Assembly (NCBI RefSeq): GCF_902652985.1
Contig: NC_047025.1
Coordinates: 39,618,001-39,682,000 of the forward strand
DNA: 64,000 nt
Direction: 5' to 3'
Source: Pecten maximus
Taxonomy: Eukaryota
Positions 28,901 to 34,900 of the stretch are shown one piece after another. The position numbers are program-made. Position 1 is the first letter of the stretch. Every line of letters begins with the position of its first letter.

Positions 28901-31900
28901 CAGCTGCGTGTTCCTGCTTACTCCACAAATAAACACACACACCAGATGATAAAGATATTAACCCAACACGAACTGACGCTTACATAAACTCGTCAAGTGG
29001 CTAGCAATAAGATACCAAAACTGTCCCATTTATCATTGTATACCTTTGATTAGTACCAGTGCATTACGTCCCAAAATCTTAGTCAACGCACCACGTCATA
29101 CATAGTCATGGTTGTCCTGGATACCATGCAATTGGATGTGAGGCTCTCTGCCGTTTTTATTACGCTTTTGATTTGAATGTCGGTGAAGAGGTTTATATTA
29201 CGTTGATAATAAAAAAAATTGTCTAAGATCACCGATCCTAGACAACACTTTCATTTATATAAATTTGTCATGTTATGTCGAAGGAGTAGCTAATTAAATG
29301 ACATGAAGCGACCTGCCTGACCTGTCTCCATGTCAGCAATACTAACCAGTCGTATGATTTCCTGAACATTGAATGTGTAAGCCTTTGTATATAAGGATGA
29401 AGGAAACATATTCAAAGATGTAACTCTTTAGTTTCGGGGAAGTTTTTCAAAGCTGTTGGTAATTGTTGAAAGCTAGTACTGAATATATATATATATAGGG
29501 CAAAGAAGTAATTCTAACCGTGTGGCCATGGATGATGTCAAATTTTTGAGGCAATCCATCCCTTTATCAAGACACAGAGAATACAAATACAATCACATGA
29601 TATATAAACAGTACTAGAAATACAATAAGACACAGTAAGAGTAAAATATATAGTAGTAAAAAACACTACCATCAACTCTTTGGCGAGCGTACATCATATC
29701 GTAGACCTCTGTGTACACATATCGTAGACCTCTGTGTACACATATCGTAGACCTCGAGACACGAGATTTCATATCAAGCAGCTGTTCCTCTCTTTGTCAA
29801 CAACTAATAAGTAAATGCCTTGTTTTCAGAATGGCCAATGCAAGAGCGAAAGCAGAGCAGGCAGACCAATCAGCCCTGAAGTCAGAACAAGATTCCGATT
29901 TTGCCAGGTTAAAAGCAAAAGAGTATGCCCCAGAATTTCATCAACCAGGTAAAGTGGGTCTCTAGATCAATGTAACCAAAATCATTTATTATACTAGAGT
30001 TAAGTATATAGATATATATGTGCTGCCCTCTAGAAACTATTATGTTCAGTTAATGTTAATTATATGTTAATGGGTTGAGCTTTATTTTGTGATGAATGTT
30101 AAAACGTGCCTGTATCTTCAAGGGTTAAACGTTATTCTATGTTTAAGGGTTAAACTATATTCTATGTTTATTTCAAGGGTTGAACGTTATTTTGGCTTCC
30201 ATTCGGTTGATTGCATTCCATATAAAAGTCGTGCAATTTGAAAGTCGTTATTCTATATTCAAGGGTTAAACGTTATTCTATGCTTAATGGTACACGTTAT
30301 TTTGGCTTCCATTCGGTTGATTGCATTCCATATAAAAGTCGTGCAATTTGAAAGTCGTTATTCTATATCCAAGGGTTAAACGTTATTCTATGCTCAATGG
30401 TACACGTTATTTTGGCTTCCATTCGGTTGATTGTATTGCAAGATTAACTAATCTGAATGTCGTACAAATAAATAAAGGAACATTGAAGCAGGTAATGTGC
30501 TCTTGTAATGGCTTCATTTAGTATGCTGTGCAAAAAATGTTCACATTCAGCGTTAAATTTACATACAAATCAAGCCAATCTTAGTAAACGAATCTTGTTA
30601 TCGGAGAACCATGTAAACGTCTGTATGATTGCGCATTAATGAAACTCATTAAATAGCGCGTACTTAATGAGTTACACTAGGTCATGACCTTGCTAATTTC
30701 TAATGTGTTTATCGTGTTCCGTGGCACATTTGGTGAGTTTGCAAATTTATCATGGATTGGCGAATTCACCATTTTTTTTACTTGCACTGTGTATATCTAG
30801 TCACAGTCACTATTAAATTCCACGGTAAGGAGTGGATAACTTTATATTTCTCCCACACACACATTTAATTTCGAGCCTCTCATAGATAGGAAAATTTCTT
30901 ATAAAACAATAATCACCACATCACTAGCCTACCCTGTAATACGCCTATGACGTGAATATTATGAGGCAATCAGTGTATAATAACGCTTTCGTGACATCAT
31001 AAATAATTCATGACGGCATAATAGTTATATGATGACGTACCTCGATTGTCTTAGTAGGCCTACCGTCCGAGTCGAAATTCGCTTTTCTTATCAATTTTAG
31101 AGAGGCTATGTCATACGGAATTTCTTTAACTCTATGTCATGCGGAATTTCTTTAACTCGACTAATAATCTCATATGCCATTCGCTTCCACGTAATATCCC
31201 TATCTGTACACGGCCACCAAACGAGTCTAACAACCAAGGTACGACTGGGAATATAGTATTTAGTGTGTGACTATTTTGGCCAAACCTATTTACAGTATAG
31301 TATTTAGTGTGTGACTATTTTGGCCAAACCTATTTATAGTATAGTGTTTAGTGTGTGACTATTTTGGCCAAACCTATTTACAGTATAGTATTTAGTGTGT
31401 GACTATTTTGGCCAAACCTATTTATAGTATAGTGTTTAGTCTGTGATCAAACAATCTACCTTATATAATGGTATTTATTACATTTTTATCAGTGAAATAT
31501 CAAAAATTATTCATTCTATAAAAGTGATATTTTTCACTAGTGAAGAATATCATATTTTTCACTAGTGAAAAATATCACTTTTGCTGATTTGACCAATCAA
31601 ATTAATGATTAGAAAATACCAAAATAATTGACCAATCAGAAAGCCCGACATATATGTCAGCACCTGGACAGGGGAAACTACTTTTTTTGTTTACAAATTA
31701 TGGCTGTAGTCCTAGTTAGCATACGGGGTAGGGTTTTCGTTGATAAAAAATGTAATAAACAGAATATCTAACAGTGTCTTCAGTAAAACTAAATATATTT
31801 CACTCGTGTGGCTAATATTTTGATATTTTTCACTCGTGCTGCGCACTCGTGAAAAATATCAAAATATTAGCCCCACTCGTGAAATATATTTGGTATTACT

Positions 31901-34900
31901 GTAAGACACTGTTAGATATCCTCTATATATGTTTCTATGCCAATCTCTACAAGATGTCAACAGTATAATACAGTCACGGCTTAGGACAACATGTTTTGTT
32001 GACAAGAAACCTTTGCTTATAACCAGAGACTAAGGAAACTAATTGGCGTGAAAACATATATTTCTATGTAGATAATTATACAATAATTTACTTGCGAAGG
32101 AAAACACACACAAACAAGATGTTACCGATATGAACGACAGATACACGTCCTGTAAGTAATTTGAATATATATTTGGTTATGGGAATAACTCAATGTAAAA
32201 GTATCGTCAACAGCTTACCTGATCTAACGGTCAGGTAGCCACCTGATCTAACGGTCAGGTAGCCATAACTCAGACTCTCATACAGCTAAAACGGACTGTT
32301 TAACACTTTGATACAGCGTCAATTGTCTTTTAGCCAGTTAAGGGAACATTAATTTTCTCGAAGTTTGTCTATGGGTTACGGGAACCTGCTTATATAGAAC
32401 TAAACAGCTAATCAGATACAACGATTTCCCTGTATGTGATTAGCTGTCATACGAGAAGGTTGTGATCGGTGACAGCGGTAACAAGGTACTAGAGATGACA
32501 TAGATAACGTGTGCCTTTTTGTTGTCTTGTTGGAACTGAAAAGACTAACCAGCACAAAAATATTCTCCATAATACCTTTAGAACTTTCGAATATAAAACT
32601 GTGTTTATAAGTTTGTAATAAAGTAATGGTGTTATCAGAGGAGTCATATGTGAGTTTGATATTCCATCACGTCTGAATCAATTGATATCGATTACAAGTT
32701 AACATCTTAAACCATAGCGCCAATGTTTGAATAGTATGAAAAATAAAATCAATATTTCTTCATTTTTCTTTAACTCGATAGTATGACCTGACATAATTAT
32801 TTTTGTAGGCTCAGACATGATGAAGAAGAAACGAGAGAATGGCGAGGTTGACGAGGATGAGTACGACTTCAGTTACGTGAAAAGCCTTCAAAACCACAAC
32901 CCACACCGCTCCAAGTCAATGCTCACTAAGTCCCCCCACGATGACGGGGGTCTACTACCCGGCGGCCTCGTTCCGATGGTCAACAGTTCCCCGGATGGAA
33001 GTCCACTTAGGAATAATAGTGGTTATGACTATCTGCAAATGTCGAATGCCAAACCGGACAGTAAAAAGATGACAAGCATACCAAATCATTCGCCACATAA
33101 CAGAAGCCCATCTTTGAAAATTAGAAGGTATAGCTTTTTGGCGGGTTCCAGAAGAGGTAGAGGATTTAGTGAAATATTCAATTCGACAATTTTAAATGAC
33201 CACTTCGATCAGTATTCTGCCCAAAGGGACGATAGCGGTTTAGGAAAGGAACTTTTAAGTGGTGAGGAACGCTACAGGGGTAATCATATAACGGACCCAT
33301 CTCCAGATTCAGGTGTTTCAGAAAGTCTGGACGACGAGTCCAAGAACAGACCGCTTCAGCGAAGAAGAACTATGCCTTGCATTGTCAAAACAGAGGGCAA
33401 TGCGAAATCACAAGCAATGGCGGAAAGAGAAACGGCGCATAGTAGCGAAAACATTGCAGGTAAAAACCCTGACATGTACGTTATAGAAAATGGAATACGT
33501 AAACGAATAAAAGGGGTGGATAGGCCTTCAGCACAACCACACAGAATGTCAAAGGGCGACCTTCCAAAAGAATATAAAATCGAAAGCCAGAATGCGTTGG
33601 GTAAGGCAAAGGGCACACGGGGCAGTCTTCCAGACATCACAGCTATCAAGCAAGTGGATAAGTTCAAATCAATCCCACGCGAGGAGGCCTACCAGTTGGG
33701 CACTGCTAGGCGAGAAGAGCTCAGGCGGCTACAGGATTTAGCCGACCGGCGTCGGCAAGGGGACGTAACCGTCATCCTAGGGGATCTGAAGGTAGGTCAC
33801 ATGTCACTGATAATTTGACATTTAGTAAATGTTTAGAAAATGTGTCGAACGTTTAAGATTGCTAACAGCAGTAATCTCCCTTTAGATGACTGCACATCTT
33901 TCGGCTCCGTTACGATACTAGTAATCGTTGATATTGAAAGGAACTTATTGAAGTTCGGCAGTGCAAAGCGATTCCTAGTTGATTTTACAAAAAAGTTCAT
34001 CATACTCGAAGCGTGCAAGTGTATCACTTGGTACTTGCTAAAAACTACAATGTGTGCAATACATTGTGTAGAGCATGTTCAGACTGTTAATTTGTGTATT
34101 GCAATTTCTGTTAAGGTTGATATACCGTCATGCTTATATGAATTATCTATGTTTCAGGACTTTGTACAGCAGCGCCAGCTGTTAGTCTTAGTAATTGCAG
34201 TGAACCTGAGTTTAGCCACAATGTTTTTCAACCTGTTGTCCTGATGAGTGCTATAATTTGATCGTCATGGAAACAAATATATGCACCTTCCAGCGACCTG
34301 TGCTACCGTGGCACACATTGGCTTCGGCGGGTTGATGCAACGGAAACAGCAGTCGAACCAGTTCTCGGTCAAAGGTCAAGAAGGGAAATTTGGTTTTCTT
34401 ACCAAGAGAAATACCAAGGCCACGCCCGTTGGACATGATTTGTTTGATAACCCGCTTTAGCCATGGCGTTTTCGCAAGAAGTTGATGGAACTCGGCGAGA
34501 CTCCAACTACCTACTGAACCAAACTTTCCTATTCCGTCTCGTACAGCCGCATCCATTTGTTCCATTAGGATGTACGAGACCGGGTCACGTGTTACCCAGT
34601 GATGTCACGTGTTACCCAGTGATCATCTTCCCTGGCACCGTATTTGTCCTAAGGACAGATCTCTATAAAGTTGTAGTGAGGACGAATTAAGTTTAAGACA
34701 TTTTGTATAAATGTATTTTGGGAGTATTTTTTCCAAGAACGAAATTTTAGTGGAGTATAAGTTCTGGGAAGAACGCGAAAAGGAAGATGAATACCAACGT
34801 TTTTTTCAATCTTTGTTGGAGCCTGGAATTCGTTGACGTTATTCAGAGTTTATATGCATTGTGGATGTTACAGATTCTTGAATGCATGTGTGTGTGGATC

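What the first reader, a model, noticed from the sequence alone, without database searches (positions are those of the whole stretch)
31465..31928. Second, sequence-unrelated element with the same hairpin + IR-arm architecture
Seen: a ~165-bp hairpin (31761-31924) next to a ~285-bp arm bounded by an 18-bp IR, in the opposite orientation to the 56201 element. Oriented alike, both hairpins end in ATTCT just before the AT-rich IR, both have a GCGC-type apex, and both lie in TA context, yet they share no extended sequence. Four co-oriented CACTCGTG and two CACTAGTG motifs look like iterated protein-binding sites. Inference: structure rather than sequence is conserved, suggesting a class of elements with a common mechanism; from recollection similar hairpins occur in Crypton-associated repeats of marine invertebrates, which I cannot verify here.
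Basis: partly seen in the sequence, partly recalled or inferred. Interest (0 to 1): 0.65.

Follow-up and report, generated by a model that had tools for sequence, protein, structure and literature searches.

The report
Scallop transposon with giant terminal hairpin
A 460-bp non-coding insertion in an intron of the king scallop junctophilin gene has the end layout of Helitron2/Helentron-type rolling-circle transposons but an unusually long terminal hairpin, so it is probably a variant of a known kind and not a new class.

Summary
Window ~31470-31929 carries a 14-nt exact inverted repeat (about 24 nt with one indel) enclosing a 286-bp arm. A ~165-nt hairpin follows it directly (DNA fold z -17). 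The sequence-unrelated element at 56200-56539 has the same layout in the opposite orientation. That second element interrupts a 46/49-bp satellite exactly, with no target-site duplication and no deletion, so hairpin and arm arrived as one block.

Only 2 of the 4 long hairpins in the window have such an adjoining repeat (rough chance 4e-5). In both elements the arm also holds a degenerate copy of the hairpin's sub-unit about 45-50 nt from the far end.

A short inverted repeat with one arm terminal and one subterminal, followed by a stem-loop, with no duplication, is the published canonical architecture of HLE2 (Helitron2/Helentron/HINE) rolling-circle transposons, which are known in bivalves. 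The host is Pecten maximus.

Four points differ or stay open:
- The hairpin is several times longer than published ones.
- The one readable target is T^G, not T^T.
- There is no local 5' hairpin.
- No partner gene lies in the window.

The Crypton link is not supported. Copy number and the partner could not be checked because no scallop genome was searchable. Interest is modest.

The parts
31470..31929 (+). Element 1 (El1), whole, about 460 bp. The ends are inferred to within about 3 nt by analogy with El2; no empty site is available.
   Evidence: The 5' limit is set 0-4 nt before the 5' repeat arm. The 3' limit is set 1 nt after the outermost hairpin pair (31755/31928).
31474..31487 (+). El1 5' inverted-repeat arm. 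14 nt exact; the imperfect extension covers 31472-31497.
   Evidence: (I10, I11), (paired in the minimum-energy fold).
31520..31582 (+). El1 5'-subterminal palindrome. It consists of two 25-nt units, each itself palindromic around CACTAGTG, and is related to the sub-units of the 3' hairpin.
   Evidence: I2: 31-nt arms, 97%; D6. (z -12.9; 0 of 200 shuffles). (arm against hairpin score 40; 0 of 500 shuffles).
31746..31759 (+). El1 3' subterminal inverted-repeat arm (imperfect extension 31735-31761). It lies directly upstream of the hairpin.
   Evidence: (E 5e-4 in a 5.5-kb search).
31755..31928 (+). El1 3' terminal hairpin. The core stem is 31762-31921 and the apex is 31840-31842. Each arm holds two about 30-nt units carrying ATAT(T/A)TTTCACTCGTG.
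   Evidence: (12 mismatches or gaps in about 86 pairs).
56200..56539 (-). Element 2 (El2), whole, 340 bp. The ends are exact because the element interrupts a satellite unit.
   Evidence: 56153-56198 is a full 46-nt unit, and C56199 plus A56540 restore the unit start CAGCTG..
56201..56362 (-). El2 terminal hairpin, 162 nt. It starts 1 nt from the element end. Each arm holds a 35-nt sub-palindrome (56219-56253, 56310-56344).
   Evidence: I2: 68-nt arms, 99%; I8, I9. (z -18.6; 0 of 100 shuffles). (1 mismatch and two 2-nt bulges).
56361..56372 (-). El2 subterminal inverted-repeat arm, next to the hairpin.
   Evidence: I14: 12 nt, 100%; E 0.009.
56529..56540 (-). El2 terminal inverted-repeat arm. 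11 nt lie in the element; the 12th matching base, 56540, belongs to the host.
56457..56496 (-). Degenerate copy of the hairpin sub-palindrome inside the El2 arm, 43-82 nt from the 5' end.
   Evidence: score 31; 0 of 500 shuffles reach it. On its own it folds only weakly (z -1.3).
56027..57264 (.). Host 46/49-bp satellite interrupted by El2. It serves as the empty-site reference.

Best explanation
El1 (~31470-31929, + strand) and El2 (56200-56539, - strand) are non-autonomous DNA transposons of the Helitron-like group 2 type (Helitron2/Helentron; the non-autonomous form is called HINE). They belong to two different families.

Each has this layout:
- a short inverted repeat whose 5' arm sits at the terminus and whose 3' arm is subterminal;
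- a terminal stem-loop directly after the 3' arm;
- a second, related palindrome about 45-50 nt inside the 5' end.

Inferred mechanism:
- A RepHel (HUH nuclease plus helicase) enzyme encoded elsewhere in the scallop genome binds the iterated motifs at both ends.
- It nicks at the 5' end and peels off one strand.
- The hairpin marks where to stop.
- In the freed strand the two repeat arms pair and stack on the hairpin, so the 5' and 3' ends lie side by side for joining into a circle.
- The element inserts without duplicating the target.

Shown here: the architecture, its non-random recurrence, and one precise insertion as a single block without duplication. Inferred: the enzyme, motif binding and the single-stranded intermediate.
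For: 1. Architecture in both elements. The repeat helix and the hairpin are 0-1 nt apart in the minimum-energy folds. The first and last nucleotides of El2 flank that junction.

2. El2 is one precise block with no duplication and no deletion. This excludes duplication-forming cut-and-paste families.

3. Recurrence beyond chance. 2 of 4 long hairpins have an exact repeat of at least 12 nt starting within 5 nt of their base. The window holds only 20 such exact pairs; 2 are these and 5 are unrelated background. My rough estimate for 2 or more of 4 by chance is 4e-5.

4. In both elements the arm holds a copy of the hairpin sub-unit near the 5' end (0 of 500 shuffles each).

5. Published definitions (passages read):
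[quoted passage not shown] - PMC4067079 and PMC7492417: HINEs have subTIRs plus a 3' palindrome, and Helitron-superfamily elements make no TSD; HINEs occur in oysters.

6. The host is a bivalve, Pecten maximus. Mollusca host HLE2 subgroup b.
Against: - Hairpin length is out of the published range. The 3' repeat arm lies 167-170 nt from the 3' end. Published values are about 20-30 nt (Helitron2), 38-60 nt with 5-10-bp palindromes (mite HINEs), and a 60-bp right flank (oyster HINEs).
- The one readable target is T^G on the element strand (C^A on +), not T^T.
- The Helitron2 5' hairpin formed by the 5' repeat arm itself is absent (z +0.56 and -0.31).
- There are no runs of T at the ends.
- No RepHel domain or any other transposase domain appears among 76 frames of 70 aa or more outside the arrays; the only mobile-element hits are RVT_1 and zf-RVT of the LINE.
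- Each element is single-copy in the 64 kb. Copy number in the genome is unknown.
- Orientation is assigned only by analogy.
Confidence: 0.55

Rival explanations
1. The elements belong to an undescribed family of transposons that make no target-site duplication and are not moved by a Helitron RepHel. The enzyme could be another HUH nuclease or a different recombinase. The long iteron-bearing hairpin would then be the main recognition and origin element, much as in bacterial REPIN/RAYT or IS200/IS605 ends.
For: - Insertion without duplication.
- The hairpin is far longer than any HLE2 stem-loop in the passages read.
- Related palindromes at both ends recall the hairpins at IS200/IS605 ends (PMC3627910 passage; PMC3333891 abstract in the listing).
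- The target is not T^T.
- No literature hit links Helitrons with 'long palindrome' or 'long hairpin': 0 occurrences in the 15 listed papers.
Against: - Apart from size, the layout is the canonical HLE2 one.
- As far as I recall, no such alternative enzyme family is known in animals.
- HLE2 elements are already known in molluscs.
Confidence: 0.15
2. Each locus is two independent elements that sit next to each other: a foldback-type palindromic element and a separate small inverted-repeat element.
For: - The arm of El2 can be read as TATTTACCAT...ATGGTAAATA flanked by TA on both sides, as a TA-duplicating element would look.
- Two other long hairpins in the window stand alone without an arm.
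Against: - The same juxtaposition at 0-5 nt occurs twice with unrelated sequences.
- The arm carries a copy of its own hairpin's sub-unit in both elements, which ties the two parts together.
- The El2 block restores the satellite unit exactly only when it is removed as a whole.
- El1 shows TA on one side and CA on the other of its repeat.
Confidence: 0.1
3. The hairpins are not mobile. They are local palindromes made by replication template switching, or loci for hairpin RNA or small RNA within the intron.
For: - Sub-threshold matches to many unrelated miRNA-precursor models on both strands.
- El1 lies in an intron of the junctophilin gene, in the sense orientation.
Against: - No match at gathering score anywhere in the window.
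- The sub-threshold hits are to plant and animal families alike and on both strands, as expected for any long AT-rich hairpin.
- El2 is a clean insertion into a satellite.
- Small-RNA output would not exclude a transposon origin.
Confidence: 0.07
4. The elements are non-autonomous Crypton (tyrosine-recombinase) derivatives.
For: The only support is that El2 has no target-site duplication.
Against: - PMC3212892 passages state that animal Cryptons have no terminal repeats, and that 50 copies of a Crypton and its non-autonomous derivative showed 'neither direct nor inverted' repeats.
- That paper contains 'hairpin' 0 times.
- No tyrosine recombinase is found in the window.
Confidence: 0.03

Closest known systems
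HLE2 = Helitron2 / Helentron and their non-autonomous HINEs (DINE-1, Cg_HINE of oysters)
   Same: - Short inverted repeat, with the 5' arm at the terminus and the 3' arm subterminal.
- Stem-loop directly after the 3' arm.
- No target-site duplication, and a T on the 5' side of the insertion.
- No coding capacity.
- Bivalve host and association with tandem arrays.

   Different: - The hairpin is 162-174 nt, against stems of a few to some tens of nt.
- The hairpin is built of iterated motif units.
- A related palindrome lies about 45-50 nt inside the 5' end, where Helitron2 has a hairpin made by the 5' arm itself.
- The target is T^G, not T^T.
- There is no internal microsatellite or array and no terminal T runs.
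- No partner has been seen.
Canonical Helitron (HLE1)
   Same: A 3' hairpin acts as the end signal, and insertion makes no duplication (Helraiser abstract PMC4778049 in the listing).
   Different: There is no 5' TC, no 3' CTRR and no A^T target. HLE1 has no inverted repeat.
IS200/IS605 ends and REPIN/RAYT of bacteria (works-like comparison only)
   Same: Similar palindromes near both ends, or a long hairpin built of inverted repeat units, serve as the substrate of a HUH nuclease acting on single strands. Insertion makes no duplication (PMC3627910 passage; abstracts of PMC3333891 and PMC3116915 in the listings).
   Different: Those systems are prokaryotic and have no flanking inverted repeat. 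No Y1 transposase is known here.
Parvovirus (AAV-type) terminal hairpins (recalled, not tested)
   Same: A hairpin of about 125-165 nt carries iterated binding motifs for a HUH Rep protein, with internal sub-palindromes. El2 has two.
   Different: There is no viral coding sequence. The hairpin is at one end only, and the elements measure only 340-460 bp.
Crypton
   Same: No target-site duplication.
   Different: Animal Cryptons lack terminal repeats of any kind. These elements are defined by such repeats.

Membership tests
HLE2 (Helitron2/Helentron/HINE) | [quoted passage not shown] | tested here: met
   El1: 14 nt exact. El2: 11 nt plus 1 host base, starting at element nt 1. Definitions.
HLE2 (Helitron2/Helentron/HINE) | Stem-loop or palindrome directly after the 3' repeat arm, close to the 3' end | tested here: met
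   The position is met, with 0-5 nt between arm and hairpin; the El2 hairpin ends 1 nt from the terminus. The size is outside the published range: 162-174 nt, against a 3' arm 20-60 nt from the end.
HLE2 (Helitron2/Helentron/HINE) | No target-site duplication | tested here: met
   El2 restores a full 46-nt satellite unit and the next unit start. El1 has no empty site and is not testable.
HLE2 (Helitron2/Helentron/HINE) | Insertion between T and T | tested here: not met
   El2 sits at CAGCT^GTGTC on the element strand: T on the 5' side and G on the 3' side. This is one site only. The literature gives variants: TTTT^T/C for Helitron2, TNAT^T or ^A in fungi. For El1, T31469 and T31930 would allow T^T, but its ends are inferred.
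Helitron2 (Bao and Jurka 2013) | 5' hairpin formed by the 5' repeat arm with its downstream bases | tested here: not met
   The first 51 nt fold no better than shuffles: z +0.56 (El1) and -0.31 (El2). El1 instead has a strong palindrome 49 nt further in (z -12.9).
HLE2 (Helitron2/Helentron/HINE) | Autonomous relative with the same ends encoding RepHel (with or without the endonuclease) | not testable with these tools
   None of 76 frames of 70 aa or more in the window hits a RepHel or other transposase domain. No scallop genome could be searched.
HLE2 (Helitron2/Helentron/HINE) | Dispersed multicopy family with conserved ends | not testable with these tools
   There is one copy of each in 64 kb. 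A protein-database search with a 68-aa frame of El2 found nothing, which is uninformative for non-coding DNA.
Canonical Helitron (HLE1) | 5' TC, 3' CTRR, short hairpin 10-12 nt from the 3' end, A^T target | tested here: not met
   The El2 ends read AT...TTAA on the - strand or TT...ATAT on the + strand, and the target is C^A / T^G.
Crypton | Tyrosine-recombinase partner; no inverted terminal repeats (animals: no terminal repeats at all) | tested here: not met
   Both elements have an inverted repeat and hairpins, unlike the description in PMC3212892. The partner is not testable.
Cut-and-paste (DDE) MITEs and Foldback elements | Inverted repeats at both termini plus a target-site duplication | tested here: not met
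   El2 has no duplication, and one repeat arm lies 167 nt inside the element.
Known RNA families (miRNA precursors and others, Rfam 15) | Match at the family's gathering score | tested here: not met
   0 matches at gathering score in the whole window. The best sub-threshold hit scores 42.3 bits against a cut-off of 211.

The most novel reading that the evidence does not exclude
The two elements represent an undescribed bivalve lineage of single-strand (HUH-type) transposons. Their ~160-nt terminal hairpin, built of iterated and partly mismatched binding motifs, would act as a combined origin and binding platform, much like a parvovirus terminal repeat or a bacterial REPIN. The short inverted repeat would serve to bring the two ends together. 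The partner enzyme could be a divergent RepHel or something else.
Probability: 0.12. Interest if true: 0.7.

Novelty: new variant of a known kind. Interest (0 to 1): 0.3.

Why it matters
If confirmed genome-wide, these would be Helitron-like group 2 elements whose end signal has grown into a 160-nt, motif-laden hairpin. That would give a natural test case for what the 3' stem-loop and the asymmetric inverted repeat do in rolling-circle transposition.

It also has a practical side. Annotation tools that look for short stem-loops or for 11-18-nt terminal repeats would mis-set the ends of such elements in bivalve genomes.

For the host gene it is probably a neutral intronic insertion.

Tried and rejected
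- Other copies in the window: blastn with word size 9 found only self hits.
- Sequence kinship of El1 and El2 (whole elements, junctions, 5' ends, 3' ends): none above shuffles. The shared ATTCT and the TATTTA start of the repeats are therefore treated as chance.
- HINE-type repeats around the tandem arrays: no convincing flanking inverted repeat. 20 of 24 arrays show no exact match of 10 nt or more, and the other 4 show only 10-nt AT-rich or isolated matches. The arrays are not evidently carried by such elements.
- The other two long hairpins (4789-4873, 57446-57570): no adjoining repeat-bounded arm.
- tRNA or SINE origin: 0 tRNA genes.
- Known RNA families: none at gathering score.
- Transposase in the window: only a LINE reverse transcriptase.
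- Copies via translated frames: a 68-aa frame of El2 (56297-56500) found no candidate in the 5.8-billion-protein set. This says nothing about non-coding copies.
- Literature searches for long-hairpin Helitrons or for such elements in scallops found no description.

Not used or not available:
- Genome contigs holds only bacteria and archaea and was not used.
- The scallop genome was therefore never searched.
- Supplementary tables of PMC7492417, PMC4067079 and PMC11417382 (palindrome lists, species lists) could not be seen. They may hold long-hairpin cases or Pecten results.
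Full report
WHAT IS THERE

A long hairpin occupies 31755-31928. Its inner arms are 31781-31839 / 31843-31901 (59 nt, 88% complementary, 3-nt loop) and its outer arms are 31755-31780 / 31903-31928.

Directly upstream lies a 286-bp segment bounded by an inverted repeat. The repeat is 14 nt exact (31474-31487 / 31746-31759) and extends to about 24 nt with one indel.

As single-stranded DNA, 31462-31930 folds at -109.4 kcal/mol against -34.9 +/- 4.3 for shuffles (z -17.2; 0 of 100 shuffles as good). 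In that fold the repeat helix and the hairpin are separated by one base.

The four CACTCGTG and two CACTAGTG motifs are at the stated places. They make up 6 of the 8 distinct CACTMGTG sites in the window. The longer word ATATTTTTCACTMGTG, with up to 3 mismatches, has 8 of its 9 matches inside the element (0 of 100 shuffles reach 9).

One detail is new. The four CACTCGTG motifs are co-oriented although they lie on opposite hairpin arms. Their central TC therefore faces TC, giving two 2x2 internal loops. These account for 4 of the 12 mismatches or gaps in the stem.

The arm holds a strong palindrome at 31520-31582. It is made of two 25-nt units, each itself palindromic around CACTAGTG (z -12.9).

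THE SECOND ELEMENT GIVES THE BOUNDARIES

The element at 56200-56539 has the mirror layout:
- a hairpin at 56201-56362 (68-nt arms, 99% complementary);
- 5 nt later an inverted repeat, TATATTTACCAT / ATGGTAAATATA (56361-56372 / 56529-56540), enclosing the arm (fold z -18.6).

It sits inside a 46/49-bp satellite. The unit before it, 56153-56198, is a complete 46-nt unit. C56199 and A56540 together restore the next unit start, CAGCTG.

Four things follow:
- The 340 bp entered as one block.
- There was no target-site duplication and no deletion.
- One repeat arm lies exactly at one end.
- The hairpin ends 1 nt from the other end.

On the element strand the target is CAGCT^GTGTC.

MORE THAN CHANCE

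The window has four long hairpins besides the inner palindrome. Only these two have an exact repeat of at least 12 nt starting within 5 nt of the hairpin base (2 of 4).

The whole window holds 20 exact inverted pairs of at least 12 nt within 450 bp:
- 13 are parts of hairpins, palindromes or motif cross-matches.
- 2 are the repeats in question.
- 5 are unrelated background.

From these counts I estimate roughly 4e-5 for 2 or more of 4 by chance.

The two elements share no sequence. blastn finds no cross hit. Local alignments of the whole elements, junctions, 5' ends and 3' ends all lie within shuffles.

A further shared trait appeared. In both elements the arm carries a degenerate copy of the hairpin's sub-unit about 45-50 nt from the far (5') end:
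- El1: 31519-31567, score 40.
- El2: 56457-56496, score 31.
In each case 0 of 500 shuffles reach the score. This ties hairpin and arm together as one unit.

CONTEXT

Two open frames match junctophilin-1-like of Pecten maximus at 100% identity (PDB junctophilin-1 at E 1.7e-52).

tblastn of the reference protein places exons at 14613-15416, 29822-29950, 32808-33791 and about 34143-34241 on the + strand. El1 therefore lies in an intron. El2 lies 22 kb downstream of the last exon.

Tandem arrays cover 36.7% of the window. None shows convincing HINE-type flanking repeats.

The window encodes no transposase. A LINE reverse transcriptase is the only mobile-element protein, and 0 of 76 frames hit RepHel, tyrosine-recombinase or DDE domains.

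COMPARISON WITH KNOWN FAMILIES

I read passages, not whole papers, of the following.
[quoted passage not shown] It inserts between T and T.
[quoted passage not shown] The 5' one is 0-2 bp from the end. The 3' one is about 20-30 bp from the end, upstream of the hairpin. There is also a 5' hairpin involving the 5' repeat. The authors propose that pairing of the two repeats sets the replication endpoint.
- PMC7492417 describes eleven such families in the Pacific oyster, with a 60-bp right flank holding the subTIR and the palindrome. Its introduction states that Helitron-superfamily elements make no target-site duplication.

The layout here is that layout. The differences are:
- Hairpin size: the 3' arm lies 167-170 nt from the end.
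- Target: the single readable site is T^G.
- No local 5' hairpin at the repeat.
- No T runs at the ends.
- No internal microsatellite.

The Crypton idea fails on the published description. Animal Cryptons and their non-autonomous derivatives have no terminal repeats, and that paper never mentions hairpins.

MECHANISM (INFERRED)

A RepHel enzyme encoded elsewhere would bind the iterated motifs present near both ends, nick at the 5' end and unwind. The hairpin would mark termination, as the Helraiser abstract (PMC4778049, seen in the listing) states for the 3' hairpin.

In the folds, the repeat helix stacks on the hairpin so that the first and last bases flank one junction. That geometry would suit joining the ends into a circle. 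None of this was tested.

RIVALS

Five alternatives were considered:
- An undescribed no-duplication family with another enzyme.
- Two adjacent independent elements. The TA-flanked reading of the El2 arm is the only point in its favour.
- A non-mobile hairpin or small-RNA locus. Rfam gives nothing at gathering score and only generic sub-threshold miRNA-type hits.
- A Crypton derivative.
- Spy-type elements, which I recall only from memory as inserting without duplication. They have terminal repeats at both ends and an AAA^TTT target, which does not fit.

LIMITS

No scallop genome could be searched:
- Genome contigs holds only prokaryotes.
- Supplements of the papers were closed.

Copy number, co-occurrence of hairpin and arm in other copies, target preference and the partner all remain unchecked. 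A translated-frame search found nothing and is uninformative. The literature searches found no description of such long-hairpin elements. That is weak evidence of novelty.

VERDICT

The feature is real. It is most likely a long-hairpin variant of a known transposon kind, and interest is modest.

Noticed in passing
window 1-64000: About 25 unrelated tandem arrays (periods 21-75 bp, up to 2.7 kb) cover 36.7% of the window. None has convincing flanking inverted repeats of the HINE type.
   Followed up: partly
window 4789-4873 and 57446-57570: Two further long hairpins (38-nt arms at 89%, 57-nt arms at 86%) each lie just past the end of a tandem array. Neither has an adjoining repeat-bounded arm. 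Their nature is unknown.
   Followed up: partly
window 14613-15416, 29822-29950, 32808-33791, 34143-34241 (+): Exons of a junctophilin-1-like gene, 100% identical to the Pecten maximus protein over the two large exons. This identifies the host as the king scallop.
   Followed up: yes
window 44452-47061 (-): LINE-type retrotransposon remnant: RVT_1 (E 1.7e-34) and zf-RVT (E 1.7e-5) in adjacent, overlapping frames.
   Followed up: no
window 47400-47969 (+): An open frame with a weak PHD-finger match (E 2.8e-4; 21.3 bits, below the 24-bit cut-off) next to the LINE.
   Followed up: no
window 31589-31599 and 31628-31638: Two exact copies of TTGACCAATCA lie 39 nt apart in the El1 arm. By my recollection the core resembles a CCAAT box. 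The window-wide count is not significant.
   Followed up: partly
window 56426-56435: The El2 arm contains TTTCCCGCGC. By my recollection this resembles an E2F-type site. It was not tested.
   Followed up: no
window 31252-31446: A 44-bp tandem array (4.4 copies, 95% matches) ends about 25 nt before the 5' end of El1. El2 also lies within an array. With arrays covering a third of the window this may be chance.
   Followed up: no
window 31106-31157 and 32217-32264: Small exact or near-exact tandem duplications (2 x 26 nt and 2 x 24 nt) flank the El1 region.
   Followed up: no
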